NCBI GenBank assembly: GCA_016342495.1
Contig: JAEIOG010000008.1
Location: forward strand, 1 to 64,000
Direction: 5' to 3'
Length of the DNA stretch: 64,000 bases
Origin: Phycisphaerae bacterium
Lineage (GTDB): Bacteria > Planctomycetota > Phycisphaerae > Sedimentisphaerales > SM23-30
Below, piece by piece: positions 2,819 through 60,557 of this stretch (position 1 is its first letter; each line of letters opens with the position of its first letter). The position numbers were made by a program, and so were the translations under genes. Under the pieces are notes generated by a model. The model saw nothing but the letters and a program-made list of their open reading frames with translations. It ran no database searches and was not told the DNA's origin.

Positions 2819-3718
2819 TTATAATCCTTTAGCTTCCCGCTTTTTCTGTCGGGCCAGAGCTCGGGCACGTTGATTCTTTGTGGGCTGGTTTTGACCGCTT
2901 TGTTTATCGGTATCTACTTTAGACTTATTGACAGGCTTGTAGGGACTTGCCTTTTTGACCTGACGTTTTTTTGGCGGAACAGCTTTGACCTTGTCAGGCT
3001 TTTGCATAATGAAAAGATAATTAAATCCTCTCAAAAAGAAATTGCCTTCATCGGCGGCCTTGCGATAGTTACCCATCTCCAGCGTTTTATTGTGCCGGAC
3101 CACTGCGATAATATCAACCGGAATAAAGAATTCACGTAAAATTTCAAACAGCTCAAAACCAATCGGGAAAAACCCCTTTTTGATTTCATGGGAGTCACTG
3201 ACATACAAACCCATATATTTGCCGGGCTTTAATATTCGATTAATCTCGGTAATTACCAGCCGCAAAGCATCATAATACTCATTGCAATCGGCGTGTAGTT
3301 TACCGATGCACTGGGGCGAATCGCTGTAATTGACATGGGTTGAATAGGGCGGGTCGATAAAAACAAAATCTGCTTTCTGGTCTTCCAGTGGAAGCTTACG
3401 GGCATCAACTCGAAAAATGTCATCACGGGTCGGATTAACATCATAGCCCAGAGCCCGGCGATTCAGGTCGCGGGCCACATCCAGTGTCGTACCGCTGCCG
3501 CACATCGGGTCAACTACCAGGTCTTTTTCTTTGGTATAGCGATCCAGCAGGTTCCAGATTATATAGCTGGGCGTTGCCCCGATATAATTTTGATTGCCCT
3601 GCATCTTATCGCCATAATTCTGGGATGGATAATCCCACAAAGTCGTAACCTGCCTTTGCAAGGGTGGCTTAGTCTTTTTGTATTTCATACCGGGTTTATT
3701 TGTGTTTTTCATATTCAT
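2819..3718 (-). CDS. Orphan N6-adenine/N4-cytosine DNA methyltransferase (pfam01555-like). The SAM-binding motif (DPMCGSGTT) precedes the DPPY catalytic motif, and there is a lysine/arginine-rich C-terminal tail.
   Basis: Motifs 'VVDPMCGSGTT' and 'FVFIDPPYS'. No adjacent endonuclease-like ORF, and it is embedded in a housekeeping operon. Confidence 0.75.
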   Translation of the reverse strand: MNMKNTNKPGMKYKKTKPPLQRQVTTLWDYPSQNYGDKMQGNQNYIGATPSYIIWNLLDRYTKEKDLVVDPMCGSGTTLDVARDLNRRALGYDVNPTRDDIFRVDARKLPLEDQKADFVFIDPPYSTHVNYSDSPQCIGKLHADCNEYYDALRLVITEINRILKPGKYMGLYVSDSHEIKKGFFPIGFELFEILREFFIPVDIIAVVRHNKTLEMGNYRKAADEGNFFLRGFNYLFIMQKPDKVKAVPPKKRQVKKASPYKPVNKSKVDTDKQSGQNQPTKNQRARALARQKKREAKGL

Positions 3719-34949: not shown

Positions 34950-35300
34950 TAATAAATGCTGGTATTGTAATTGACCAGTGTTATCGCTTAGGCATCCGTC
35001 GGTATGCAGAGACGTTGCATGCAAAGTCTCTGCAGTTGTGTCCAGCACAATAGACATCCGACAGCGCGGGCATGGCCCACCCTGCAAAACTGGTAACTGG
35101 TAATTAGTTATCGCTAATGGGATAAGAGACAAGCAGGATGCTTGTCCTACAGATGGGTCCCTCGCCAGCTACATCCAGACGGTCCAAGGCGGCAACGACG
35201 CCGGTACATCCACCAACCAATGATGCTTATGTAAGTTATGTCCAGCTTCAAGCTGGTAGGGTAGAGACGTTGCATGCAACGTCTCTACTACAGTATTGTG
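34950..35300. repeat. Copy A of a composite palindrome-rich repeat element, in the same orientation as copy C at 57590-58065 and inverted relative to copy B at 55305-55830
   Basis: Shared blocks with copy C are 'gctggtatt..ttgac', 'gacaagcaggatgcttg', 'ggcggcaacg.cgccgg...ccaacca.tgat.cttatgtaag' and 'CCAGCTTCAAGCTGG'. The hairpin 'tagagacgttgcatgcaacgtctcta' is shared with copy B. Confidence 0.7.
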
Positions 35301-35645: not shown

Positions 35646-36326
35646 TTGAAAGGACAAAAACCAATGAAAAAAATCTTAGGGATTATCTTAATATCCATCA
35701 TAGCTTTGTTTGTACTAGATCATATTTTAGTCTATTATTTTGTGTATGACGCCACAGGTGGTTCCCTATCGAATACCGATCCCGGCCAACAAGCCGCTTA
35801 TGACAAGGCCCTAACCTTAATCGAGAAGGCCAAAGCCGACAATGACATCTCGCTGAGCCTTAGTCATTCAGGTTTGACCCAAGTACCGCCAGAGATAGGT
35901 GAGCTTACTTCTATGGAATGGCTGGACCTTAGCAATAATGCTCTAACTGCTTTGCCACCGGAGATAGGTGAGCTTGATTCGCTGAAATACCTGTATCTAT
36001 ATGATAATGCCATAACCAGCTTCCCGACAGATATCAGTGAGCTTACTTCCCTGGTAATGCTTGTTCTGCATGAGAATGAACTTACCAGCCTGCCAGAAGA
36101 AATGGCCAACCTTACTTCACTCAACCAGCTGTACCTCAATGACAATAAGCTGAAAGTTTTGCCCCAGTGGATTACCCAGCTGGATATGGAAATAGTCTGG
36201 GAAGATAAATCTTATAGAGGTAAAGGCATCAATGTCTATGGCAACCCTTTAGAAGAACCACCAATCGAAGTCGTCAAGCAAGGCAAAGCCGCTATTAAAG
36301 CCTGGTTCGATGAGAAGAATAAGTAA
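35646..36326 (+). CDS. Leucine-rich-repeat protein, single module: an N-terminal TM/signal, 'AAYDKAL' helix, about six LRRs (LxxLxLxxNxLtxLPxEIgxLtsL) and a conserved C-terminal cap 'WITQLDMEIVWE..GINVYGNPLEEPPIEVVKQGKAAIKAWF'
   Basis: LRR consensus repeats 'LEWLDLSNNALTALPPEIGELDSLKYLYLYDNAITSFPTDISELTSLVMLVLHENELTSLPEEMANLTSLNQLYLNDNKLKVLP'. Confidence 0.8.
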   Translation: MKGQKPMKKILGIILISIIALFVLDHILVYYFVYDATGGSLSNTDPGQQAAYDKALTLIEKAKADNDISLSLSHSGLTQVPPEIGELTSMEWLDLSNNALTALPPEIGELDSLKYLYLYDNAITSFPTDISELTSLVMLVLHENELTSLPEEMANLTSLNQLYLNDNKLKVLPQWITQLDMEIVWEDKSYRGKGINVYGNPLEEPPIEVVKQGKAAIKAWFDEKNK

Positions 36327-49429: not shown

Positions 49430-50386
49430 ATGGCCAAAGACATAAATAGTAAATCACCCAGAAATCAGACCATATTTCTTGATGAACAAGATTTACATAT
49501 CTATAAAAATGGTATTACCGAAGTTGTTGGCCCAGTTGAACTGGCCGACATAATTGATAAGACTATCTGTCAGGACAGTTTTAAGATACTGGATTATATG
49601 CCCAGAGATTCTGTTGACCTGCTTATTGCTGACCCACCTTATAATCTGACCATGAAGTTTAATGAAGCCAGCTTCAAGGCTTGCGATATGGGGCAATATC
49701 AAAATTGGCTTGAAAGTTGGATTCGTAAACTGGTTCGCATTATCAAATCTGATGGTAGTTTGTATTTTTGCGGTGATTGGCGGAGTTCGCCGGCTTTGTT
49801 TTTTGTTTTACAGAAATATTTTAATGTGCGCAATCGCATAACCTGGGAACGAGAAAAAGGACGTGGTTCAAAAACTAATTGGAAAAATTCCCATGAAGAT
49901 ATCTGGTTTTGCACGATGGGTGATAAGTATACATTTAATGTCGATGCGGTGAAGCTTAAACGCAAAGTAATAGCACCTTATAAAGATAATGGTCAGCCGA
50001 AAGACTGGGCGCATGACAAAGATGGTAAGTTTAGACTTACCCATCCATCGAATATGTGGACAGATATATCGGTGCCGTTCTGGTCGATGCCGGAAAATAC
50101 CGAGCATCCCACCCAAAAGCCTGAAAAACTGATAGCTAAACTGATATTGGCCAGCAGCAATGCGAATGATATTGTTTTTGATCCGTTTTTAGGCTCTGGC
50201 ACAACAAGTGTTGTTGCCAGGAAGCTCAAAAGGCATTATATTGGTGTCGATATTGATGAGAAGTTTTGCTTATTAGCAGAAAAACGTTTGGCAATGGCCG
50301 AACCAAGTCCTGATATTCAGGGGTATTCTGGTGGTGTGTTTTGGGAACGAAATAGTGGTAATAACATTAAACGTGCAGCTGATTGA
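49430..50386 (+). CDS. Beta-class N6-adenine/N4-cytosine DNA methyltransferase (CcrM/M.HinfI-like) with no visible cognate endonuclease
   Basis: 'LLIADPPYN', 'HPTQKPEKL' and 'VFDPFLGSGTT' in beta-class order. It ends 36 bp before the radical SAM gene. Confidence 0.8.
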   Translation: MAKDINSKSPRNQTIFLDEQDLHIYKNGITEVVGPVELADIIDKTICQDSFKILDYMPRDSVDLLIADPPYNLTMKFNEASFKACDMGQYQNWLESWIRKLVRIIKSDGSLYFCGDWRSSPALFFVLQKYFNVRNRITWEREKGRGSKTNWKNSHEDIWFCTMGDKYTFNVDAVKLKRKVIAPYKDNGQPKDWAHDKDGKFRLTHPSNMWTDISVPFWSMPENTEHPTQKPEKLIAKLILASSNANDIVFDPFLGSGTTSVVARKLKRHYIGVDIDEKFCLLAEKRLAMAEPSPDIQGYSGGVFWERNSGNNIKRAAD

Positions 50387-50422: not shown

Positions 50423-51538
50423 ATGAGACCATTTTCGTTATTGATAAAACCGGCTGGTCCGGATTGTAATATAGATTGTAAGTATTGCTTTTATTCACGT
50501 AAAAGCGAGATGTTTGGGCCGGGTCGTCATCGTATGACTGATGATGTGCTGGAGAAGCTGGTCAAGGATTTTCTGGAATTGGGTTTTCCGGTAAACAGCT
50601 TTGCCTTTCAGGGGGGTGAGCCTTCGCTGATGGGTTTGGAGTTTTATCAGAAGCTGGTAGATTTACAGAAAAAGTATGGCTCTGATGGCCAGGTAATAAC
50701 CAATGCCCTGCAGACCAATGGTACATTATTGGATCAGCAGTGGTGCGAGTTTTTACATGAATATAAATTTTTGGTTGGCATTAGCTTAGATGGCCCGCAA
50801 AAGTATCATGATCATTTTCGCATCGACCATGCTGGCAAACCAACCTGGCAACGGGTAATGGATGGCATAAGGAATTGCAAAAAATATAATGTTGAATATA
50901 ATATTCTGGTTTTGCTCAATAGTTTCAATGTTGACTATCCTGATGAATTATTTGATTTCTTTATCGAGAATAAATTCAAGTTTTTACAGTTTATTCAATG
51001 TGTAGAACTGGACCAGGGAACTGGAGATATTTCCACTTTCAGTATTACGCCCAGGCAATATGGTGATTTTCTCTGCCGGGTATTTGACCGCTGGCTGAAA
51101 TATGGGCCAACAAAAATGAGTATTCGTACATTCGACAGTATTTTGAGCTATCTTCTGGAAGGTCGCCATACCGAATGTACCCTGGGGCCGCGCTGTAATG
51201 ATTATGTTGTAGTTGAACATGATGGCGGGGTTTATTGCTGCGACTTCTTTGTTGATAATGAATGGAAACTCGGCAACTTAATGGATGAAAATATTGGTGA
51301 TCTTGCCAATTCCCCATTGAAAAGTAAGTTTTCCAAACGCAAAAGAGATGTACCTAATAAATGTAGCTTATGTCGCTATTTGCATATATGTCGCGGGGGC
51401 TGTCCCAAGGATAGAGTTGTGACTCAAGGCAATAAGCCTATTAGCTACTTCTGTGAATCCTACCAGCAACTATTTGGGCATACTTTACCAAAACTGGAGG
51501 AATTTGCAGCGATGCTGCGGAGTCAAAATGGACAATAA
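50423..51538 (+). CDS. Anaerobic sulfatase-maturating enzyme (radical SAM/SPASM, AslB/anSME family)
   Basis: 'LLIKPAGPDCNIDCKYCFY' is the CxxxCxxC motif. 'FAFQGGEPSLMGLEFYQKL', 'LQTNGTLLD' and the C-terminal SPASM 'CSLCRYLHICRGGCPKDR' are collinear with characterised anSMEs. Confidence 0.8.
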   Translation: MRPFSLLIKPAGPDCNIDCKYCFYSRKSEMFGPGRHRMTDDVLEKLVKDFLELGFPVNSFAFQGGEPSLMGLEFYQKLVDLQKKYGSDGQVITNALQTNGTLLDQQWCEFLHEYKFLVGISLDGPQKYHDHFRIDHAGKPTWQRVMDGIRNCKKYNVEYNILVLLNSFNVDYPDELFDFFIENKFKFLQFIQCVELDQGTGDISTFSITPRQYGDFLCRVFDRWLKYGPTKMSIRTFDSILSYLLEGRHTECTLGPRCNDYVVVEHDGGVYCCDFFVDNEWKLGNLMDENIGDLANSPLKSKFSKRKRDVPNKCSLCRYLHICRGGCPKDRVVTQGNKPISYFCESYQQLFGHTLPKLEEFAAMLRSQNGQ

Positions 51539-51731: not shown

Positions 51732-53180
51732 ATGGCAAATATCAAATATTTTTTGGGTGAACAAATCCCTCTTGAAATGCATAAAGTACGAGTAGTTCAG
51801 AGGTTAGACCTGGTTCCTATCGAAAGGCGACTGGAAGCCATCAAAGAGGGCGGTAATAATACTTTTCTACTTTTCAATAAAGATATTTATCTTGATATGC
51901 TCACCGACAGTGGCGTAAATGCCATGAGTGATAAGCAGATAGCTTCAATGATGGTAGCTGATGACAGCTATGCCGGCTCGGCGACATTTACCCGCCTTGA
52001 GAGTAAGCTTGCTGAAATATTTGATAAAAAGTTTTTCCTGCCTGTCCATCAGGGCCGTGCATGTGAAAATCTTCTTTCTCAGATGCTGGTCAAAGAAGGC
52101 AGTCTTGTGCCTATGAATTATCACTTTACCACTACCAAAGCCCATATTGGTGTTAATGGCGGTAAGGTTTTGGAATTATACAAGGCCGAAGCTCTTAACC
52201 CGATCAGCAGCGACCCTTTTAAAGGTGATATGGATATTGATGCGTTAAATGCATTGATTGCTAAAGAAGGTCCTGACAAAATTGCCTTTATCAGAATTGA
52301 AGCAGGAACTAACCTGATCGGCGGCCAACCGGTTTCTCTGGCAAACTATGAAATTGTAAGTAAAATTTCCCGTGATAATGGGATACCTTTTATTGTTGAT
52401 GCCAGTTTGCTGGCTGATAATCTGCATTTTATCAAGCAGCGTGAAGATGCCTGCAAGGAAATGTCGATTCGTGAAATCACTAAGCGGATTTCGGATGCTT
52501 CTGATATCATTTACTTCTCTGCCCGCAAGCTTGGCCATGTCAGAGGCGGGGGGATTATCACTAATGATGAAAAGACATTTAAGACTTTGTTGGAAATGCT
52601 ACCGCTTTATGAAGGTTTTTCGACTTATGGCGGGATGTCCGTGCGTGAAATGGAAGCTATGACCGTTGGTTTGGAAGAGACCATGGATGAAGAGATGATT
52701 AATCAGGGTCCGGTCTTTATTGAGTTTATGGTTAATGAGTTGACTCGTCTGGGGATACCGGTTATCACACCTCCCGGCGGTTTGGGTGCCCATCTGGACG
52801 CTATGGCATTCCTTGATCATGTCCCTCGTGGGGAATATCGCGCCGGAGCTTTAGCTTCTGCTCTCTATATCGCCAGTGGCGTAAGAGGAATGGAAAGAGG
52901 AACGATCTCCGAAGAGCGTGAAGCCGACGGCAGCGATCACCTGGCCGCTGTTGAACTTTTGAGACTGGCTCTGCCTCGTCGGGTTTTTACTCTTTCACAG
53001 ATCAAATACACTATCGACCGCATCGCCTGGCTGTATGAAAATCGCAAATTGATCGGTGGTTTGAAGTTCTATGAAGAACCTAAGGTGCTGCGATTCTTCT
53101 TTGGTAAGCTGGAGCCGACTTCTAACTGGCAGGAGAAACTTATTGCCAAGTTCAAAGCAGATTTCGGCGAGAGTCTATAA
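51732..53180 (+). CDS. Tryptophanase / tyrosine phenol-lyase family (PLP beta-eliminating lyase)
   Basis: 'NTFLLFNKDIYLDMLTDSGVNAMSDKQ' aligns with TnaA '[25 protein letters not shown]'. It is 482 aa, with an 'SARKLG' PLP-lysine region. Confidence 0.75.
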   Translation: MANIKYFLGEQIPLEMHKVRVVQRLDLVPIERRLEAIKEGGNNTFLLFNKDIYLDMLTDSGVNAMSDKQIASMMVADDSYAGSATFTRLESKLAEIFDKKFFLPVHQGRACENLLSQMLVKEGSLVPMNYHFTTTKAHIGVNGGKVLELYKAEALNPISSDPFKGDMDIDALNALIAKEGPDKIAFIRIEAGTNLIGGQPVSLANYEIVSKISRDNGIPFIVDASLLADNLHFIKQREDACKEMSIREITKRISDASDIIYFSARKLGHVRGGGIITNDEKTFKTLLEMLPLYEGFSTYGGMSVREMEAMTVGLEETMDEEMINQGPVFIEFMVNELTRLGIPVITPPGGLGAHLDAMAFLDHVPRGEYRAGALASALYIASGVRGMERGTISEEREADGSDHLAAVELLRLALPRRVFTLSQIKYTIDRIAWLYENRKLIGGLKFYEEPKVLRFFFGKLEPTSNWQEKLIAKFKADFGESL

Positions 53181-53353: not shown

Positions 53354-55207
53354 TCATTTCTCCGCGGCTAAATAAAGCTTGACCCGGCAGTCAATAAGAT
53401 TATCTTTGGCCTTCACTGATTTATCAGTGATATTAAACTGCCAGCCGGCTTTGCCATCAGTCAGCATAACCACGGTATTTAACGTGATAAGGGCTACCAG
53501 CGGCTTATCGGTTTCGGCCAGCACCTTCATAATGGTCGGGCGCGGGTCAGCAGCACCGGTAAGACCCAGGAATTCGGCTGCCCGAACCTTCACCAGCTCA
53601 TTATCATCCTTTTCAGCGATGGCTTTGGCCTTATCATAGAAGTCCGCTGCCTGATTGCCAAAACAGCTGCACACGATTAAGGCCCAGTAACGCTTGAATG
53701 GATCCTTATCTGCCAGTGCCCGGTCAATACCAGCTTTGGCCTTGTCATAATCTTCCAATGCCAGGTCCGCCACATCGATTAATTCGGCGATACGTCCCTT
53801 ATTTTTTATTCCAAAGGCGATCGGATCGCCAAAGGCATGCTCACAGAGATAACTTTCCGGGAAGAAACTCAAATCCGGCAATGCCTTAGCCTGATTTTGC
53901 AGTTTGCCGCGTAGCTGAGCTAACACATCTCGATAAGCCGGATCCTTAGCGAGGTTCTTAACTTCATAGGGATCCTTAACCACATCGAATAAAGTCTCCG
54001 GATCACGGCCCAAAAAGAACTGGCTTTGCACTTCATTGAGTTTACCAGCTTTATAAAGCTCTCTCCATTCCTGATAAGCGATCATTTTATAGCGATAATT
54101 ATTCTGCAGGGCATCGAAATTAAAACCCTGATAGTTGCGATGATACTTAAATTGACCCTTCCGGACAGTTCGCACCATATCATACTTTTCATCAAAGCGG
54201 TCAGCGATCCCATAAGCTTCATCCTGCCGAGCAACAGCTTTGATATCGACCTTAGGTCCCAGGAAAGGCTTGCCATCAGCTAACTCAGGAATCTTAACAC
54301 CGGCCAGATTCAATGCCGTTGGGGCCATATCGATAAAATTGACAAAGCCATCGAATCTTGTACCTGCCTTTAAGTCGATCAGATGCCTGAAATTAGCCGG
54401 GATCCGCATGACCATCGGCACATGCAGCCCGGTTTCATAGAGATAACCCTTGCTGCGTGGGGTAACTCCGCCATGATCGCCAAAATAAAAGATGAAAGTA
54501 TCTTCCAGAACGCCCTGAGCCTCTAATTTAGCGACCATTTCACCAATTTGCTCATCGAGAATCTCATGATGCTTGTAATATTGATTATAAGTCTTGCGGA
54601 AAACCTCGGTGTCAGGGTAATGAGGGGGAAGTTTAATATCTTTATTGTCGATACCGGTCTTGCCGGCCTTTTGCAGCGGTCCTTCATGGGTAATAGCGAA
54701 CTGATGTTGATGGAAAAACGGCTGGCCGGGCTGCCGGCCTTGCCAGGTTTTATTGGAGTCAAAGACATCTTTGCCCCAGTTAAAGTTAAAATCGGTCTTA
54801 CGAAAATAAGAAGTATAATAACCGGCCTGCTTCAGATAAGCCGGAAAGGGCTTTAGGCCATCGGGCAGCTCAACTGGCTGATATTTACGGTGATAATGGA
54901 TCGCCAGCTTATTAGGATAGCAGCCAGTGATCAAGGTAGACCTTGCCGCCGAGCAGACCGGGCAATTGGAAAAGGCATGGTCAAAGATAACACCCTTGCC
55001 GGCGAGCTTATTGACATTGGGCATATCCACACCATCTCTATTATAGATATTGCAGAAGTGTTGGGAATTATCTTCGGATATCAGCCAGACTATATTAGGC
55101 CTTTTACCCTTGATCGGGCTCTGGCTGAAGCAATTATCAGAGCCCAGTAGAACGGCACCCAGGCTCAAACCGGCCATTTTAATGAATTGACGACGACTAT
55201 TTGGCAT
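53354..55207 (-). CDS. Cys-type sulfatase (arylsulfatase family) with a Tat-like signal and a C-terminal HEAT/ARM-like extension
   Basis: 'MPNSRRQFIKMAGLSLGAVLL' and 'PNIVWLISEDNS...CPVCSAARSTLITG' give a C-x-A-x-R FGly motif variant. 617 aa. Confidence 0.75.
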   Translation of the reverse strand: MPNSRRQFIKMAGLSLGAVLLGSDNCFSQSPIKGKRPNIVWLISEDNSQHFCNIYNRDGVDMPNVNKLAGKGVIFDHAFSNCPVCSAARSTLITGCYPNKLAIHYHRKYQPVELPDGLKPFPAYLKQAGYYTSYFRKTDFNFNWGKDVFDSNKTWQGRQPGQPFFHQHQFAITHEGPLQKAGKTGIDNKDIKLPPHYPDTEVFRKTYNQYYKHHEILDEQIGEMVAKLEAQGVLEDTFIFYFGDHGGVTPRSKGYLYETGLHVPMVMRIPANFRHLIDLKAGTRFDGFVNFIDMAPTALNLAGVKIPELADGKPFLGPKVDIKAVARQDEAYGIADRFDEKYDMVRTVRKGQFKYHRNYQGFNFDALQNNYRYKMIAYQEWRELYKAGKLNEVQSQFFLGRDPETLFDVVKDPYEVKNLAKDPAYRDVLAQLRGKLQNQAKALPDLSFFPESYLCEHAFGDPIAFGIKNKGRIAELIDVADLALEDYDKAKAGIDRALADKDPFKRYWALIVCSCFGNQAADFYDKAKAIAEKDDNELVKVRAAEFLGLTGAADPRPTIMKVLAETDKPLVALITLNTVVMLTDGKAGWQFNITDKSVKAKDNLIDCRVKLYLAAEK

Positions 55208-55304
55208 ATTTTACTCCTTTAACGGTGAAAAAGTGGCTTCGATATAGAGGATATTTCTCCAAAGACCCCAATTTGCCCAAAAATCCCCTCAAAATTAATA
55301 ATAA

Positions 55305-55830
55305 TCCAGCTTAAAGCTGGACATAACTTACATAAGGATCATTGGTCGCCAGCTTGAAGCTGGACACAGCTTACATAAGGATCATGGTCGGTGGGTACTC
55401 CCGCTTCCGTTGGTCGCTGCATCAGCCAGAACGTCATAAGCGGGGGACAAATGTTGATGCGGCCGTGACACATTTTGTAGAGAGTTTGCATGCAACGTCT
55501 CCACCCCCGGCCAGATGCCAGTCGCCAGAAACACCGGTCAAATACAATACCGGCATTATGAATCATTCAATATGTAGGACAAGCATCTTGCTTGTCATTT
55601 ATCCCCAGGCACCAGCACAATGAAACCAATATCAAGCAGGATGCTCGACCTACTTTGCCCAATGCAGGTTGAACCTGCTTACAACTTACATAAGGATCAT
55701 GGTCGGTGGGAGCTCCCGCTTCCGTTGGTCGCTGCTGCCGGCAGAACGTCACAGGCGGGGGACAAATGTTGATGCGGCCGTGACATATTTGTAGAGACAA
55801 GGCACCCCTTGTCTCAGCTTCCGGCTAAAT
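55305..55830. repeat. Copy B of the composite palindrome-rich repeat element (about 1.4 tandem units), inverted relative to copies A and C and directly 5' of the minus-strand sulfatase gene
   Basis: A 120-bp block 'cttacataaggatcatggtcggtggg..ctcccgcttccgttggtcgctgc...gcgggggacaaatgttgatgcggccgtgaca.attttgtagaga' occurs at 55371 and 55685. The palindromes are CCAGCTTAAAGCTGG and CCAGCTTGAAGCTGG. The reverse complement aligns with 57700-58060. Confidence 0.75.
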
Positions 55831-56043
55831 GTCAGGCAACTTAAGATAAAAGCAGGGGCGCAGAAGGTATAAGTTAATCCATTTAAAATAGAAATCTCCC
55901 ACCAACTGACAAATTCGGCTTTGCTAAGGCACAGATTTGGCGGATTTAATACTTGAAAACATCAAAGTGAGGAGTTAGTATTGATAAACCAGTTAAGAAT
56001 AAGTCAACCGTTGAGCAGTTTGGCTTAACAAAGGAACAAAGCT

Positions 56044-56670
56044 ATGGGAATAACGGAATCAAACATTTACCTAATATTCACTTTCATACTAGTTATCCTG
56101 ACAGCTAACATCAAATCCTTCAAGGATTGTTCGCTAGAGCCTGTCCGTTGGTATGATCTGACTGTATCGTCATGGATAATAGTGGCTATTATGTGCCTGC
56201 CACATAATATGCCCGGACATTTCACTTTCGTTGTCTGCTTTATGGTGGTGATGTATTTGTTATCCCTGCTTTTATGGCGATTTATGTTGCTATTTACCAA
56301 TGATCGTTCGCTTCAACGTCGCTGTTTGCCTTTACTTCGCATAATCAGCAGTGTTTTCATTTTTATCATAATGGTTTTATGGTCACAGCTGGCTTTTGCC
56401 GATGCCAAAGACTTCGCCGATGCCACTGCCCGAGAGCTTCAGGCTCAGATAGAAACTCAAGGCAGCTGTCCGGAGACTATCGATGGCTGGCAATCGGATT
56501 TAGGAAACCACCTTATCGCCTGGCATGGCAGCTATGGAATCAAATACCCTGTAAGATGCTTCTTGGATGACAGCGAAGACAGCTTCACAATCTTTATCAG
56601 TCAACATTTTGGCGAGAAATATATAATAACCGGCGGACTAAACAACAAATTATACTATGCCACCGAGTGA
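56044..56670 (+). CDS. Hypothetical membrane protein, paralog 1 (208 aa), with N-terminal TM helices and a conserved C-terminal 'AFADAKDFADATARELQAQIETQGSCPETIDGWQSD' domain
   Basis: It is 55-60% identical to the adjacent ORF, and the upstream 40 bp including the RBS region is also duplicated. Confidence 0.6.
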   Translation: MGITESNIYLIFTFILVILTANIKSFKDCSLEPVRWYDLTVSSWIIVAIMCLPHNMPGHFTFVVCFMVVMYLLSLLLWRFMLLFTNDRSLQRRCLPLLRIISSVFIFIIMVLWSQLAFADAKDFADATARELQAQIETQGSCPETIDGWQSDLGNHLIAWHGSYGIKYPVRCFLDDSEDSFTIFISQHFGEKYIITGGLNNKLYYATE

Positions 56671-56757
56671 GTGGATTAATTAAAAGCAAAGTTATCCGCA
56701 GATATACGCAGAATATGTCAACCGTTGATTATTTTGGCTTAACAAAGGAGTTTAGCT

Positions 56758-57384
56758 ATGGATATAATGGAAGTATCATTTTACATATTAATATTTTTTG
56801 TGTTAGTTATTCTGGTATTTTACATAAGATCAATCAAAAATCACCAGCAGGAGCCCATCGGCTTGCTTCATCTGACAATACCAACTTTGCTAATACTCGC
56901 TTTCATTGGGCTTCCGCATAATATGCCTGGACTTTGGATTTTCGCAGGTTACTTCTTGGCTGTAATGTGGGTGCTTTCCCTGCTGCTGATGCGTTGGGTG
57001 CGGTCTTTAACTGATGCTCGCCCACTTCTGCGGCGCCATATTTCCTCTGTTCATGCGTTTATGAGCATTTTAATCTTTATCATAATGCTCTTATGGGCGC
57101 AGCTGGCTTATGCCGATGCCAAAGACTTCGCCGATGCCACCGCCCGGAAGATACAAGCTCAGATAGAAACCGAAGGCAGCTGCCCGGAGACTATCGATGG
57201 CTGGCAATCGGATTCAGGGGGATTCCTTAGCACCTGGCATGGCCGCTATGGAATAAAATTCCCTGTAAACTACACCTTAAACGAAAGCAAAGACTGCTTC
57301 ACAATCAGCATCGTACCCCATATTGCCCAACGCTATACAATAACCGGCGGCCCGAACCGCAAATTACATTATGCCACCGAGTAA
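56758..57384 (+). CDS. Hypothetical membrane protein, paralog 2 (208 aa)
   Basis: Tandem duplicate of 56044-56670. The motif 'TTATCCGCAGA' follows both genes. Confidence 0.6.
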   Translation: MDIMEVSFYILIFFVLVILVFYIRSIKNHQQEPIGLLHLTIPTLLILAFIGLPHNMPGLWIFAGYFLAVMWVLSLLLMRWVRSLTDARPLLRRHISSVHAFMSILIFIIMLLWAQLAYADAKDFADATARKIQAQIETEGSCPETIDGWQSDSGGFLSTWHGRYGIKFPVNYTLNESKDCFTISIVPHIAQRYTITGGPNRKLHYATE

Positions 57385-57589
57385 GTGGATTAATTAAAAA
57401 CAAATATTATCCGCAGACTGGCATAGCCAGCTTTACAAAGGGCATAGCCAGCTTTACTGAGACACAGATAAGACATCGGCGACCGCCGCTGAAATACGAA
57501 AATATATAAAATTCATCTTCGCTGCTGTTAAGCAGCTCTTATCTGCGTTCATCTGCGGATAAAAGTAATGATTTAATTAAAGACCCTGT

Positions 57590-58065
57590 CCCCCGCATCC
57601 GACGTTCAGCCGGATGCAGGCGGCAACGCCGCCGGTGGCACTTGCCAACCAGTGATTCTTATGTAAGGAGGGTGCAGGCTCAGCCTGTTGTGTGCAGGTT
57701 CAAGCTGGAGGGTGCAGGCTCAGCCTGCATTGGGCCAAGTAGGTCGAGCATCCTGCTTGACATTGGTTTTATTGTGCTGTTGCCTGGGGAAAAATGACAA
57801 GCAGGATGCTTGCGCTACTTATTGAATGAATCATAACGCTGGTATTCTATTTGACATTTGTCTCTGGTGCTCGACATCTGGCCGGATGCCCAGACAAGGG
57901 GTGCCTTGTCTCTACCAAATATGTCACGGGCGAATTAATATTTTCCCTCGGCCTGCGACGTTCTGGCTGATGCAGGCGGCAACGCCGCCGATAGCACTTG
58001 CCAACCAGTGATTCTTATGTAAGGAGGGTGCAGGCTCAGCCTGTTGTGTGCAGGCTCAGCCTGGT
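57590..58065. repeat. Copy C of the composite repeat element (about 1.35 tandem units), upstream of the triple-module LRR gene
   Basis: 'ccggatgcaggcggcaacgccgccg.t.gcacttgccaaccagtgattcttatgtaaggagggtgcaggctcagcctg' occurs at 57610 and 57960. The CAGGCTCAGCCTG palindrome occurs three times, along with the hairpin 'agacaaggggtgccttgtct'. Confidence 0.75.
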
Positions 58066-58072
58066 TGGGTTA

Positions 58073-58198
58073 AAAGTGAACTTGATTCTGGCAAAAGTGA
58101 ATTCAATTCTGTCAAAAGTGAGTTCAATTATGTTAGAAGTGAATTCAATTCTGTCGAAAGTGAACTTGATTCTGTCAGAAGTGAACTTGATTATTACT
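58073..58198. repeat. Six tandem copies of a 21-bp unit (consensus AAAGTGAAYTYRATTCTGTCR), with no spacers
   Basis: The units begin at 58073, 58094, 58115, 58136, 58157 and 58178, with 2-5 mismatches each. Confidence 0.8.
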
Positions 58199-58487
58199 CT
58201 TTTAAGCATGATTTTGCCTGTTTCGAAGGGGGAAATGGCTGTTTTACGCTGAAATCCGGCTTTTATTTATCGGTCCGGGCCGCTGGCGGGGGCATTGGCG
58301 GCTCTTTGACGCTGATTTGTGGCTGACTTTAAGATATTATTGAAGATTCCTGCTGGGCCGGCCTTGATTGTGGCGGTTGGGCAGGGTTGATCGTACCAGT
58401 TTTTTTCTATTGCATAGCAGTATGGCCCGGTTTATAATCTCCCTGCGGCAGAAATGAAGCTTAACGGCCCCCAGCGGAGATCAAACC

Positions 58488-60557
58488 ATGACCAAATATG
58501 TAAGCCAAAGCATAATAGCGATTATCGCAGCAACAATCATGCTCGCCTTAACCTCCTGTGACAGTAAAAGCGAACCCTTCAATATCAGCTCATCGGAAGA
58601 TGTTGCTCAAAAAAATGATACAATGACACTTAGGCAACAGGCGGCTTATGATAAAGCCCTGCTTATGATTAAGCAGGCAAAAGTCAATAAAGCTAACATG
58701 CTCAACATTTTTTCTATAGACCTTACAAAAGTGCCGAACGAGATATCCCAGCTCTATGAACTAAAGGAACTATATATTTCCTGTAATCCATTATTAAGTT
58801 TACCACTTGAGATCGGCAATTTAACAGCATTGAGATCTTGTTTTATTACTTATAACGATCTGATAGCCTTACCTCCTGAGATTGGCCAGCTTAGTAACCT
58901 CGAAGAATTAAGTTTTACCGGTAATAGCTTAAATTATCTTCCTGCTGAGATCGGTGAGTTATCCAATCTGGAATTTTTATATCTTGATGATAATAATCTA
59001 ACCAGCCTACCCGAGGAAATCAGGCAGTTAACTAACCTTAGAATTCTGGATCTTAGTAATAATAAACTTACAATCCTGCCTCGCTGGATTACTGAAATGG
59101 ATATGAATATTCGCTGGGGGACTGGCTTTGTAGTTAAAGGCATCAACCTCTACGGCAACCCTCTTCAAGAGCCGCCGATAGATATTGTGATGCAGGGCAA
59201 GGAAGCGATTAAGCAGTATTTTGCGGATAAGGAAGCAACCGCAAAAGCTGGTGATGATGTTAAAGAAGCTAAGATGATCGCCGAAGAGCGTGCGGCCTAT
59301 GATAAAGCTCTCAGCGAGATTAAAAAGGCTAAAGATGAAAATGCCATTTATCTGTGGCTGCATGAAATACCTCTTAGCAAGTTACCGCCGGAGATTGGTG
59401 AACTTATCTGGCTGGAGAAATTGTTTATTTTTAAAACTGAGCTATCCAGTTTACCGCCAGAAATCGGGCAATTGACTGCATTGAAGCAGCTTGCTGTTCA
59501 TGACAATCAGCTGACTGGTTTACCGAAGGAGATTGGCCAGCTTAATCGCCTTGAAATCTTCTCTGTGGAAGATAATCGTCTGACTTGTCTGCCGGCTGAG
59601 ATCGGAAAGTTGACTGCTCTGCAAGAGTTGAGGCTTTGCAATAATAAACTAAACAGCATTCCCGATCAAATCAGCCAGCTGGCTAACCTTAGATGTCTTG
59701 ATCTTAGGGGTAATGAGCTTAAGAGTTTACCTGGCTGGATTACGGAAATGGATATGAAGATTCTCTGGGGAGAACATGGGAATTTTAAAGGCATAAACCT
59801 CTACGGCAACCCTCTTCAAGAGCCACCGATTGAGATTGTCAAACAGGGCAGGGCCGCTATAAAGCAATATTTTGGAATTGATGATGCAGGTTTTCCAGCA
59901 AGCATTGTCCAGAGAAAAGCTAAGATAGCAGCTAAACAGCAAATGGCCTATGATAAAGCTCTCAAGAAGATTAAAAAGGCCAAGGCTGAAAATGTCACAA
60001 CACTATATCTATCTGGAATGGACCTGATAAAGTTGCCGGCCGAGATTGGTGAGCTCACCGAGCTGGAAAAGCTGGTTATTTTTAAAACTGAGTTATCCAG
60101 TTTACCGCCTCAGATCGGTAAGTTGACTGCATTGAAAAACCTTGATGTCAGTTTCAACCAGCTGACTTGTTTACCGCCAGAGATTGGTCAGCTCAGCAAC
60201 CTTGAAACCTTGTTTGTTGAAGATAGTAATCTGACTTGTCTGCCGGCTGAGATCGAAAAGTTGTCTAACCTGCAAGAATTGATGCTTAGTAATAATAAAC
60301 TAACCAGTCTTCCCGAGGAAATTACCCGGTTGACTAACCTTAAACGCGTACATCTGTTAAATAATAAACTCAAAACCCTGCCGGTCTGGATTACCGAAAT
60401 GGATATGGCGATCATCTGGGATAAATCCGATGCATCTGAAGCCATTTTCCTCTACGGCAACCCGCTGGAAGAACCGCCGATTGAGATTGTCAAACAGGGC
60501 AATGCCGCTATTAGGCGGTATTTTGAGGATAAGGGCGAGGGAAAGCCTCGGGAGTAA
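58488..60557 (+). CDS. Leucine-rich-repeat protein built of three tandem copies of the module found in the 226-aa LRR protein. Each copy has the AAYDKAL helix, about six LRRs and a WITEMDM...GINLYGNPLQEPPIEIVKQG..AIKQYF cap.
   Basis: The module boundaries lie near residues 45, 260 and 470. The LRR consensus 'L..L.L..N.L..LP.EIGQL..L' occurs more than 18 times. The N-terminus 'MTKYVSQSIIAIIAATIMLALTSCD' is lipoprotein-like. Confidence 0.8.
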   Translation: MTKYVSQSIIAIIAATIMLALTSCDSKSEPFNISSSEDVAQKNDTMTLRQQAAYDKALLMIKQAKVNKANMLNIFSIDLTKVPNEISQLYELKELYISCNPLLSLPLEIGNLTALRSCFITYNDLIALPPEIGQLSNLEELSFTGNSLNYLPAEIGELSNLEFLYLDDNNLTSLPEEIRQLTNLRILDLSNNKLTILPRWITEMDMNIRWGTGFVVKGINLYGNPLQEPPIDIVMQGKEAIKQYFADKEATAKAGDDVKEAKMIAEERAAYDKALSEIKKAKDENAIYLWLHEIPLSKLPPEIGELIWLEKLFIFKTELSSLPPEIGQLTALKQLAVHDNQLTGLPKEIGQLNRLEIFSVEDNRLTCLPAEIGKLTALQELRLCNNKLNSIPDQISQLANLRCLDLRGNELKSLPGWITEMDMKILWGEHGNFKGINLYGNPLQEPPIEIVKQGRAAIKQYFGIDDAGFPASIVQRKAKIAAKQQMAYDKALKKIKKAKAENVTTLYLSGMDLIKLPAEIGELTELEKLVIFKTELSSLPPQIGKLTALKNLDVSFNQLTCLPPEIGQLSNLETLFVEDSNLTCLPAEIEKLSNLQELMLSNNKLTSLPEEITRLTNLKRVHLLNNKLKTLPVWITEMDMAIIWDKSDASEAIFLYGNPLEEPPIEIVKQGNAAIRRYFEDKGEGKPRE

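What the first reader, a model, noticed from the sequence alone, without database searches (positions are those of the whole stretch)
56044..57565. Tandemly duplicated membrane-protein genes with co-duplicated upstream and downstream signals
ORFs 56044-56670 and 56758-57384 are both 208 aa with the same architecture. Each has about 3 TM helices and then a conserved soluble domain 'AFADAKDFADATAR.LQAQIETQGSCPETIDGWQSD.G..L..WHG.YGIK.PV'. The duplicated unit includes about 45 bp upstream ('aaccgttga..a.tttggcttaacaaagga...agctatgg') and the downstream 'TTATCCGCAGA' motif. That motif recurs as an inverted pair (57408 / 57552) next to a 17-bp direct repeat, GGCATAGCCAGCTTTAC x2. The N-terminal halves have diverged more than the C-terminal halves. 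This diversifying paralog pair sits inside the inverted-repeat-bounded segment, consistent with a variable surface or immunity-like cassette.
Basis: seen in the sequence. Interest (0 to 1): 0.55.

Follow-up and report, generated by a model that had tools for sequence, protein, structure and literature searches.

The report
Tandem pair of pilin-headed membrane proteins
Two adjacent genes in a Phycisphaerae (Planctomycetota) genome are real duplicates of an unnamed membrane-protein family whose outward-facing domain is predicted to fold like a type IV pilin; this is an ordinary local duplication, not a variable or immunity cassette.

Summary
ORFs 56044-56670 and 56758-57384 are gapless 208-aa paralogues (54% identity, E 6e-81). 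They lie in a 714-bp tandem duplication that also carries a 32-nt leader and the 3' TTATCCGCAGA motif.

- **Selection:** the pair is under purifying selection (dN/dS 0.3-0.6), not diversifying selection.
- **Uneven divergence:** the 3' half has much lower synonymous divergence (dS 0.36 against 1.1; p about 0.001). That points to partial gene conversion.
- **Family:** an exhaustive HMMER search found 95 distant relatives (17-26% identity among the 35 aligned), most 170-240 aa. None matches Pfam.
- **Distribution:** the six genome loci found come from Planctomycetota (five) and Omnitrophota (one). Each of 20 loci holds one copy, next to housekeeping genes that differ by lineage.
- **No mobile or defence signal:** there are no phage, plasmid, viral-contig or PADLOC hits.
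- **Inverted repeat:** the bounding repeats are copies of an interspersed intergenic repeat that also occurs at 34955-35290.

Function remains inferred. Interest is modest.

The parts
55996..56043 (+). Leader of copy A. It holds the conserved 32-nt motif at 56004-56035 (TCAAC-C-GTTGA inverted repeat, then TTTGGCTTAACAAAGGA with an AGGA Shine-Dalgarno-like core).
   Evidence: 90% identical to 56710-56749. The motif occurs exactly twice in the window against 0 expected.
56044..56670 (+). Paralogue A, 208 aa: four TM helices followed by an extracytoplasmic pilin-like head.
   Evidence: Identical to NCBI 'MAG: hypothetical protein JEZ07_02580 [Phycisphaerae bacterium]'.
56671..56702 (+). Conserved 3' flank of copy A (GTGGATTAATTAAAAGCAAAGTTATCCGCAGA). 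The 21-nt stretch 56692-56712, which runs 10 nt past this flank, is 90% complementary to 57542-57562.
   Evidence: (I11, D14).
56710..56757 (+). Leader of copy B, the duplicated copy of 55996-56043. No terminator-like hairpin lies between the two genes.
56758..57384 (+). Paralogue B, 208 aa, same architecture as A. A 107-aa truncated gene call of it exists in public data (P0002).
57385..57417 (+). Conserved 3' flank of copy B, including TTATCCGCAGA (left arm of the long hairpin).
   Evidence: 91% identical to 56671-56702.
57420..57457 (+). Two exact copies of GGCATAGCCAGCTTTAC, 21 nt apart start to start, inside the long hairpin.
   Evidence: (D17).
57385..57600 (+). Strongly folding 3' region. 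TTATCCGCAGA (57407) pairs with TCTGCGGATAA (57552), and TTAATTAAA pairs with TTTAATTAA. A GC hairpin with a T-rich tail lies at 57521-57536. This is the likely transcript end of the pair.
   Evidence: MFE -64.5 kcal/mol, z -6.0, 0 of 200 shuffles fold as well. Terminator-like site reported.
55306..55840 (+). Left array (about 1.6 units, 315-nt period) of an interspersed multi-hairpin intergenic repeat, about 100 nt upstream of the sulfatase gene start (55207, minus strand).
   Evidence: (D3, D6, I1, I2).
57590..58064 (-). Right array (about 1.3 units, 356-nt period) of the same repeat, inverted relative to the left array and upstream of LRR gene 58488-60557.
   Evidence: (D5, I1-I6).
34955..35290 (-). 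Third copy of the same repeat, in the same orientation as the right array and upstream of another LRR gene (35646-36326).

Best explanation
**Shown**
- The two ORFs are real, expressed-type genes that arose by a lineage-specific 714-bp tandem duplication. The duplicated unit carried one gene with its leader/RBS and the left arm of its 3' hairpin.
- They are divergent members of an uncharacterised family of about 170-240-aa proteins. The six genome loci recovered come from Planctomycetota and Omnitrophota. The family has no Pfam model.
- Elsewhere the family is single-copy and lies next to housekeeping genes.
- Both copies are under purifying selection.
- The 3' half of the gene and the short flanks are far less diverged than the 5' half, at synonymous sites too.

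**Inferred**
- After an older duplication, the 3' half and flanks were homogenised by gene conversion, or the 5' half was replaced by recombination.
- The pair is probably co-transcribed. The only promoter-like site lies upstream of copy A, no terminator lies between the genes, and a large hairpin follows copy B.

**Predicted structure and proposed mechanism**
- Three N-terminal TM helices are followed by a fourth TM helix. That helix continues as a long amphipathic helix packed on a five-strand antiparallel sheet, which is a type IV pilin-like module.
- Topology by the positive-inside rule is N-out, loops 1 and 3 in, head in the periplasm.
- There is no prepilin cleavage site and the module is covalently tied to a polytopic anchor. 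I therefore propose a non-polymerising, membrane-retained pilin-fold protein that presents a periplasmic binding or docking surface, possibly acting as an A/B heteromer.
- It is not a filament subunit and not an immunity determinant. The mechanistic part is the weakest step.
For: **Duplication and signals**
-.

**Real family**
- A profile of the pair finds 95 representatives at E<=1e-3, and 20 at E<=1e-10. Most matches span much of the profile, often from about positions 8-40 to about 204.
- The alignment shows shared motifs: PPL, IRPxL, SAD.YA, CP..I.GW, YG.YGTKY, GGV.K.L.
- No Pfam family for any of 37 members. In NCBIfam one unnamed family (LVIS_2131) matched 2 of the 37 and was not followed up.

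**Distribution and copy number**
- The six GTDB genome loci are three Pirellulales, one Sedimentisphaerales, one other Planctomycetota and one Omnitrophota. Fourteen more loci come from metagenomes.
- There is exactly one family ORF per locus in all 20 loci. By my count from the coordinates, about 8 distinct loci have at least 750 bp on both sides.
- Neighbours vary and are housekeeping genes: argC/argJ/rpsI/CN-hydrolase, MiaA/HflX, HypD/HypF, OrnDC/ADH/CinA.

**Selection and mosaic history**
- dN/dS is 0.28-0.63. dS is 1.11 for residues 1-115 and 0.36 for residues 116-208.
- Codon identity at conserved residues is 22/44 against 53/62 (Fisher p 1.7e-4). Stratified by codon degeneracy, the CMH test gives p 0.0013.

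**Structure**
- The full-length model has pLDDT 83. The model of residues 92-208 has pLDDT 92.6.
- For the C-terminal model the 17 best hits are all type IV pilins or T2SS pseudopilins.

**Topology and transcription**
- Charge bias.
- Promoter, terminator and fold scans.

**Against a mobile or defence role**
-.
Against: - Foldseek of the same C-terminal model against the PDB found nothing significant. The best hit has E 0.25 and none of the 50 listed hits is a pilin.
- No type IV pilus or T2SS gene was seen among the window ORFs scanned or among the neighbours scanned in other loci.
- The window pair has lost residues that are conserved in the rest of the family: D of the IPxD loop, the first Cys of the C-x5-C pair, and DE of HNIDE. 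Its function may therefore differ from the family's or be decaying.
- Gene conversion needs at least two separate tracts (leader, and 3' half plus 3' flank). Nucleotide-level constraint on these segments is not excluded.
- Co-transcription is inferred only from consensus scans, which are not tuned to Planctomycetota.
Confidence: 0.6

Rival explanations
1. One reading: a diversifying paralogue pair forming a variable surface or immunity-like cassette inside an inverted-repeat-bounded (mobile or invertible) segment.
For: - The head domain is predicted to be extracytoplasmic.
- The pair is bracketed by 294-nt arms that are 78% complementary.
- The pair is very divergent from the rest of the family (17-26% identity among the members aligned).
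- It has no close relative in the JGI metagenome scan, and the only hit at E<=1e-30 among the cluster representatives of about 15 billion proteins is a truncated call of copy B itself.
Against: - dN/dS is below 1 everywhere, and the asymmetry is also synonymous.
- There are no PADLOC, phage, plasmid or IMG/VR hits.
- No recombinase or transposase ORF lies in 55208-58487, and there is no GC anomaly.
- The inverted repeat consists of an interspersed repeat with a third copy at 34955-35290. All three copies lie upstream of outward-facing genes.
- Relatives are single-copy in housekeeping contexts.
Confidence: 0.07
2. The pilin resemblance is coincidental. On this view the family is an unrelated periplasm-facing sensor, anchor or small enzyme that uses the conserved S-A-D, Y-G-T-K-Y and H-N-I-D-E residues. 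The window pair, which lacks several of these residues, would be a degenerating or neofunctionalised offshoot.
For: - Foldseek and the sequence searches give no pilin signal.
- The family has conserved polar motifs that are not typical of pilins.
- No T4P or T2SS neighbours were found.
- The window copies lack the D, DE and first-Cys residues.
Against: - The full-length model independently gives the same top hit.
- Purifying selection on both window copies argues against decay.
Confidence: 0.25
3. The proteins are unusual pilin precursors. The three N-terminal TM helices would act as a very long leader that is cleaved before TM4 to release a polymerising pilin.
For: TM4 plus the head matches the full pilin layout: hydrophobic alpha-1N, amphipathic alpha-1C, then a beta-sheet.
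Against: - None of the 94 family proteins of 400 aa or less has a G-1/F+1...E+5 type motif.
- The conserved junction is [RK]-[LF]-[IV]-R-P-x-L, with no Gly or Glu.
- The N-terminal TM region carries its own conserved motifs (KN, RW, PPL, IPxD), which is unlike a disposable leader.
- No prepilin peptidase gene is nearby.
Confidence: 0.04

Closest known systems
Type IV pilins and T2SS pseudopilins (e.g. Shewanella oneidensis pilin PDB 4d40, P. aeruginosa PilE 4noa, Thermus PilA4 6xxd, EpsI 2ret, GspI/GspK 3ci0)
   Same: - The predicted C-terminal module has the same layout: a hydrophobic helix in the membrane that continues as an amphipathic helix packed on a 4-5-strand antiparallel sheet.
- The head is predicted to be periplasmic.
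   Different: - There is no class III signal peptide, no Gly-1 and no Glu+5.
- Three additional conserved TM helices lie upstream, so the module is tethered.
- There is no C-terminal disulfide-bonded D-region. The family instead has a C-x5-C pair in the alpha-beta loop, of which the window pair keeps one Cys.
- No sequence similarity was found and there is no Foldseek support.
- There is no pilus or secretion gene neighbourhood.
Ordinary lineage-specific tandem gene duplicates with partial gene conversion
   Same: - The two copies lie head to tail with a 714-bp period, including the regulatory flanks.
- Each copy is the other's closest relative (54% identity, against 17-26% to the other aligned members).
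- Divergence is mosaic, with a homogenised 3' half.
   Different: Nothing unusual. The only notable point is that the duplicated gene belongs to an undescribed family.
REP/BIME- or MITE-like interspersed intergenic repeats (for the flanking inverted repeats)
   Same: The repeats are non-coding, rich in hairpins, occur in several intergenic copies in both orientations, and form partial tandem arrays.
   Different: - The units are long (315-356 nt).
- No terminal inverted repeats or target-site duplications were identified.
- Only three sites could be examined, and all lie upstream of gene starts. The elements could be shared 5' regulatory elements rather than mobile DNA.

Membership tests
Unnamed 4-TM / pilin-like-head family (Planctomycetota, Omnitrophota; no Pfam model) | Significant homology spanning both the TM region and the head | tested here: met
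   A profile of the window pair hits P0003-P0035 at E 1e-18 to 1e-7. Matches typically span from about profile positions 8-40 to about 204. A family HMM scores the window ORFs at 1.5e-56 and 2e-58, but the window sequences were part of that HMM.
Unnamed 4-TM / pilin-like-head family (Planctomycetota, Omnitrophota; no Pfam model) | Four TM helices with loops 1 and 3 positively charged, and a C-terminal head of about 90 aa | tested here: met
   AF2 helices are 3-24, 33-50, 57-85 and 90-139, followed by 5-6 strands. Mean K+R is 3.1 in loop 1, 0.3 in loop 2 and 5.0 in loop 3.
Unnamed 4-TM / pilin-like-head family (Planctomycetota, Omnitrophota; no Pfam model) | Family signature residues (IPxD loop, C-x5-C-P, YGTKY, HNIDE, GGVxK) | tested here: inconclusive
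   The window pair keeps CP..I.GW, YG.K[YF], H, GG..K.L and A121. It has LPHNMPG in place of IPxD, lacks the first Cys, and lacks DE of HNIDE. It is a divergent member.
Type IV pilin / pseudopilin superfamily | Class III (prepilin) signal peptide: short basic leader, Gly-1, hydrophobic +1, Glu+5, cleaved by a prepilin peptidase | tested here: not met
   A regex scan of 94 family proteins found no match. The conserved junction is [RK][LF][IV]RPxL. About 90 residues with 3 TM helices precede the module.
Type IV pilin / pseudopilin superfamily | Alpha-1 helix (hydrophobic N-half, amphipathic C-half) packed on an antiparallel beta-sheet | tested here: met
Type IV pilin / pseudopilin superfamily | Genomic association with assembly genes (PilB/GspE ATPase, PilC/GspF platform, PilD peptidase) | tested here: not met
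   None was found among the 28 large window ORFs scanned with Pfam, nor among the neighbours scanned in L001-L016. The rest of the genome was not available.
Type IV pilin / pseudopilin superfamily | Polymerisation into a filament | not testable with these tools
   This needs experiments or multimer modelling.
Anti-phage defence / immunity systems | Match to a known defence or immunity protein model, or residence in a defence island or mobile element | tested here: not met
   PADLOC gave 0 hits. PHROGs gave only E 0.028 on a TM stretch. There were no phage, plasmid or IMG/VR relatives. Flanking genes are a sulfatase, a beta-eliminating lyase, an LRR protein and radical SAM enzymes.
Composite transposon / invertible DNA segment | Terminal inverted repeats plus a transposase or site-specific recombinase | tested here: not met
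   Inverted repeats are present. They are 78% complementary copies of an interspersed repeat that also occurs at 34955-35290. The only ORFs of at least 150 aa between 55208 and 58487 are the two paralogues. Target-site duplications were not examined.

The most novel reading that the evidence does not exclude
The family would be a previously undescribed class of uncleaved pilin-fold proteins that are permanently tethered to the inner membrane by a polytopic anchor. On this reading it works with type IV filament or T2SS-like machinery in Planctomycetota and Omnitrophota, for example as a pilus-base docking or priming element or an assembly regulator. In this genome it would have duplicated into a heteromeric A/B pair.
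Probability: 0.15. Interest if true: 0.6.

Novelty: new variant of a known kind. Interest (0 to 1): 0.3.

Why it matters
The duplication itself is ordinary genome evolution. The modest value lies in the family.
- It is a conserved protein, single-copy at every locus sampled, found in Planctomycetota and Omnitrophota genomes, with no Pfam entry.
- Its predicted architecture, a pilin-like module fused behind three TM helices with no prepilin signal, matched no Pfam model, and my two literature searches turned up no description of it.
- If the pilin likeness is real, it would add a membrane-retained branch to the type IV filament protein repertoire. Planctomycetota are already known, from my own background knowledge, for a large expansion of pseudopilin-like proteins.
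- If the likeness is not real, this is simply one more uncharacterised membrane protein.

Tried and rejected
- **Word-indexed homology search:** the single protein returned only itself, and the 37-member profile returned only 3 proteins. The exhaustive HMMER search was needed.
- **Two long repetitive hits in that search:** P0036 and P0085 are low-complexity artefacts, not fusions.
- **N-terminally extended members:** P0018, P0071 and P0083 add only more TM helices or a zinc ribbon, so they give no functional clue.
- **The search for related loci with the 37-member alignment:** it failed because there was no conserved stretch. A 10-member subgroup worked.
- **Close relatives of the window pair:** a scan of JGI metagenomes found none, so copy-number variation across near relatives could not be assessed.
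- **The look-up of encoding contigs for P0001:** not on record.
- **Rfam on 54500-59000:** only chance-level miRNA and IRES matches below the gathering scores.
- **Foldseek against the PDB:** nothing significant.
- **AFDB fold libraries:** unavailable.
- **PDB sequence profile search:** nothing.
- **Literature:** two searches found no description of such an architecture.
- **Promoter-like site at 56739-56768 (11 of 12 matches):** I do not treat it as a promoter for copy B, because its -10 box lies inside the coding start.
- **NCBIfam LVIS_2131_fam:** it matched 2 of 37 members at 2.7e-6 and was not followed up. It is itself a family with no stated function.
Full report
**1. Observation**

ORFs 56044-56670 and 56758-57384 (+ strand) both encode 208 aa. 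They align without gaps at 54% identity (113/208, E 6e-81).

At the DNA level the repeated unit is 55996-56702 against 56710-57417. The period is 714 nt and identity is 72%.

- The 32-nt leader TCAACCGTTGAnnAnTTTGGCTTAACAAAGGA occurs exactly twice, against 0 expected.
- TTATCCGCAGA occurs three times: after each gene, and inverted at 57552. The expectation is 0.01.
- GGCATAGCCAGCTTTAC occurs twice, 21 nt apart.

The N-terminal halves are 43% identical and the C-terminal halves 69%. The segment is bracketed by inverted repeats, with 294-nt arms that are 78% complementary.

Two corrections apply:
- There are four hydrophobic helices, not about three.
- The inverted repeats are arrays of an interspersed repeat (section 6).

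**2. Are they genes, and of what family?**

The window proteins match nothing in Pfam, NCBIfam, PADLOC or PHROGs above noise. The word-indexed search returned only the protein itself, 'MAG: hypothetical protein JEZ07_02580 [Phycisphaerae bacterium]'.

An exhaustive HMMER search used a profile of the pair against 1.84 billion cluster representatives. It found 95 proteins at E<=1e-3 and 20 at E<=1e-10. Most are 170-240 aa, and many match much of the profile. The best hit, P0002, is a 107-aa truncated call of copy B.

A 37-member alignment shows identities of 16-25% to copy A (17-26% across both window copies), with shared motifs in both the membrane part and the head:
- Membrane part: KN..RW, PPL, IPxD, IRPxL.
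- Head: SAD.YA, C-x5-CP..I.GW, YG.YGTKY, HNIDE, GGV.K.L.

None of the 37 members matches a Pfam family, and NCBIfam gives only a 2-of-37 match to LVIS_2131_fam, itself of unknown function. The ten clusters inspected are singletons, mostly from metagenomes.

The window pair is a divergent offshoot. It has LPHNMPG instead of IPxD, lacks the first Cys, and lacks the DE of HNIDE.

**3. Distribution and context**

Six loci were recovered from species-representative genomes: three Pirellulales, one Sedimentisphaerales, one other Planctomycetota and one Omnitrophota. Fourteen more came from JGI metagenomes.

A six-frame HMM scan finds exactly one family ORF in every one of the 20 loci, and only the two known copies in the 64-kb window. 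By my count from the coordinates, about eight distinct loci have at least 750 bp on both sides of the gene, so an adjacent tandem copy would have been seen.

Neighbours differ between lineages and are housekeeping genes:
- argC, argJ, rpsI and a CN-hydrolase.
- MiaA and HflX.
- HypD and HypF.
- Ornithine decarboxylase, ADH and CinA.

There are no relatives in plasmids, phages or IMG/VR contigs.

In the window the flanking genes are a beta-eliminating lyase, a sulfatase, an LRR protein and radical SAM enzymes. The remaining ORFs scanned are ordinary chromosomal genes, including EF-G, folP and a MiaB-like enzyme. GC content is unremarkable.

**4. Evolution of the pair**

dN/dS is 0.28-0.63 in every segment, which indicates purifying selection.

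The N/C asymmetry is not only a matter of protein constraint:
- dS is 1.11 for residues 1-115, 0.27 for residues 116-170 and 0.36 for residues 116-208.
- At residues conserved between the copies, identical codons are used in 22/44 cases in the N-terminal half and 53/62 in the C-terminal half (Fisher p 1.7e-4).
- The difference survives stratification by codon degeneracy (CMH p 0.0013).
- The non-coding leader (90% identical) and 3' flank (91%) are also far more similar than the 5' coding half (61%).

The simplest reading is an older duplication followed by partial homogenisation through gene conversion. Alternatively, one 5' half was replaced by recombination. Nucleotide-level constraint on these segments is not excluded.

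This is the opposite of a 'diversifying' signature.

**5. Structure**

AlphaFold2 with the 37-sequence alignment gives pLDDT 83 and pTM 0.75. It predicts helices at 3-24, 33-50, 57-85 and 90-139, followed by 5-6 beta-strands. A model of residues 92-208 gives pLDDT 92.6.

The positive-inside rule puts loops 1 and 3 in the cytoplasm and the head outside. Across the family, mean K+R is 3.1 in loop 1, 5.0 in loop 3, 0.3 in loop 2 and 0.2 in the N-terminal tail.

- For the C-terminal model the 17 best hits are all type IV pilins or T2SS pseudopilins. They include PilE, PilA4, PAO1 PilA, gonococcal pilin, EpsI, GspI, GspK and ComP.

Counter-evidence:
- Foldseek against the PDB found nothing significant. 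The best hit has E 0.25 and no pilin appears among the 50 listed hits.
- The profile-versus-PDB sequence search was empty.
- None of the 94 family proteins checked carries a prepilin-type G|F...E5 motif. The conserved junction before TM4 is [RK][LF][IV]RPxL.
- No pilus or T2SS gene was found nearby.

The proteins therefore look like a pilin module tethered behind three conserved TM helices. They fail the defining tests for membership of the pilin superfamily: signal peptide, Glu5 and gene neighbourhood.

**6. Flanks**

The region 57385-57600 after copy B folds strongly (MFE -64.5 kcal/mol, z -6.0).
- The two TTATCCGCAGA arms form a long hairpin that encloses the 17-bp direct repeats.
- A GC hairpin with a T-rich tail lies at 57521-57536.

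Copy A is followed only by the left arm. The 21-nt stretch 56692-56712 is 90% complementary to 57542-57562 (I11). No terminator-like structure lies between the genes.

The only upstream promoter-like site, at 55953-55981, lies outside the duplicated unit. Co-transcription of A and B is therefore likely, but it is inferred.

The 'bounding' inverted repeats are arrays of a multi-hairpin repeat with a 315-356-nt unit:
- 55306-55840.
- 57590-58064, inverted relative to the first.
- A third copy at 34955-35290.

At all three sites the repeat lies upstream of a gene start and in the same orientation relative to it:
- The sulfatase gene (start 55207, minus strand).
- LRR gene 58488-60557.
- LRR gene 35646-36326.

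The inverted arrangement is thus explained by two outward-facing neighbours, each carrying the element. It does not mark a mobile or invertible cassette. No recombinase or transposase ORF lies in the interval.

**7. Verdict**

The 'diversifying, immunity-like, inverted-repeat-bounded cassette' part is not supported.

This is a lineage-specific, partly homogenised tandem duplicate of an uncharacterised inner-membrane protein family with a predicted periplasmic pilin-like head.

I propose, with low confidence in the mechanism, a non-polymerising, membrane-retained pilin-fold protein that provides a periplasmic docking surface.

Novelty is at the level of a new architectural variant of pilin-fold proteins. 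Interest is modest (0.3).

Noticed in passing
window 55306-55840, 57590-58064, 34955-35290: An interspersed, hairpin-rich intergenic repeat with a 315-356-nt unit and the core CTTACATAAGnATCAnTGGTnGG...GAACGTC...GGGGGACAAAT. At all three sites it lies upstream of a gene start and in the same orientation relative to it: one sulfatase gene and two LRR-protein genes. It may be a shared 5' regulatory or leader element, or a MITE-like repeat. It has no Rfam match.
   Followed up: partly
window 58048-58215: About eight tandem copies of a 21-nt unit (GTCAAAAGTGAATTCAATTCT, 67-81% identity to the reference copy) lie between the right repeat array and the LRR gene. They read through as a heptad-like ORF (58048-58326, 92 aa) of doubtful coding status.
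   Followed up: no
window 58488-60557: The 689-aa leucine-rich-repeat protein is internally repeated with a period of about 651 nt. Its translation shows the AAYDKAL...KKAK linker three times. A second, shorter LRR gene at 35646-36326 has the same upstream repeat.
   Followed up: no
window 50423-51538 and 53354-55207: A radical SAM/SPASM enzyme lies near a sulfatase. This looks like an anaerobic sulfatase-maturating enzyme with its substrate sulfatase. A beta-eliminating lyase (51732-53180) lies between them.
   Followed up: no
window 56739-56768: This is the best sigma-70-like match in the region (TTAACA-18-TATAAT, 11 of 12). It overlaps the start codon of copy B, so its -10 box is inside the ORF. 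A second in-frame ATG at 56767 (M4) could be an alternative start.
   Followed up: no
family alignment A3 (loci L001-L020; P0003-P0086): Many family members carry a short C-terminal tail ending in a conserved [IV]-P-[IL]-[DE]-like motif (e.g. KNIPID, EIPIS, PLPLDYYK). Both window copies lack it. NCBIfam LVIS_2131_fam matched 2 of 37 members at 2.7e-6.
   Followed up: no
window 2819-3718 and 49430-50386: Two N6/N4 DNA methylase genes lie in the window. No adjacent restriction enzyme was identified among the ORFs scanned.
   Followed up: no
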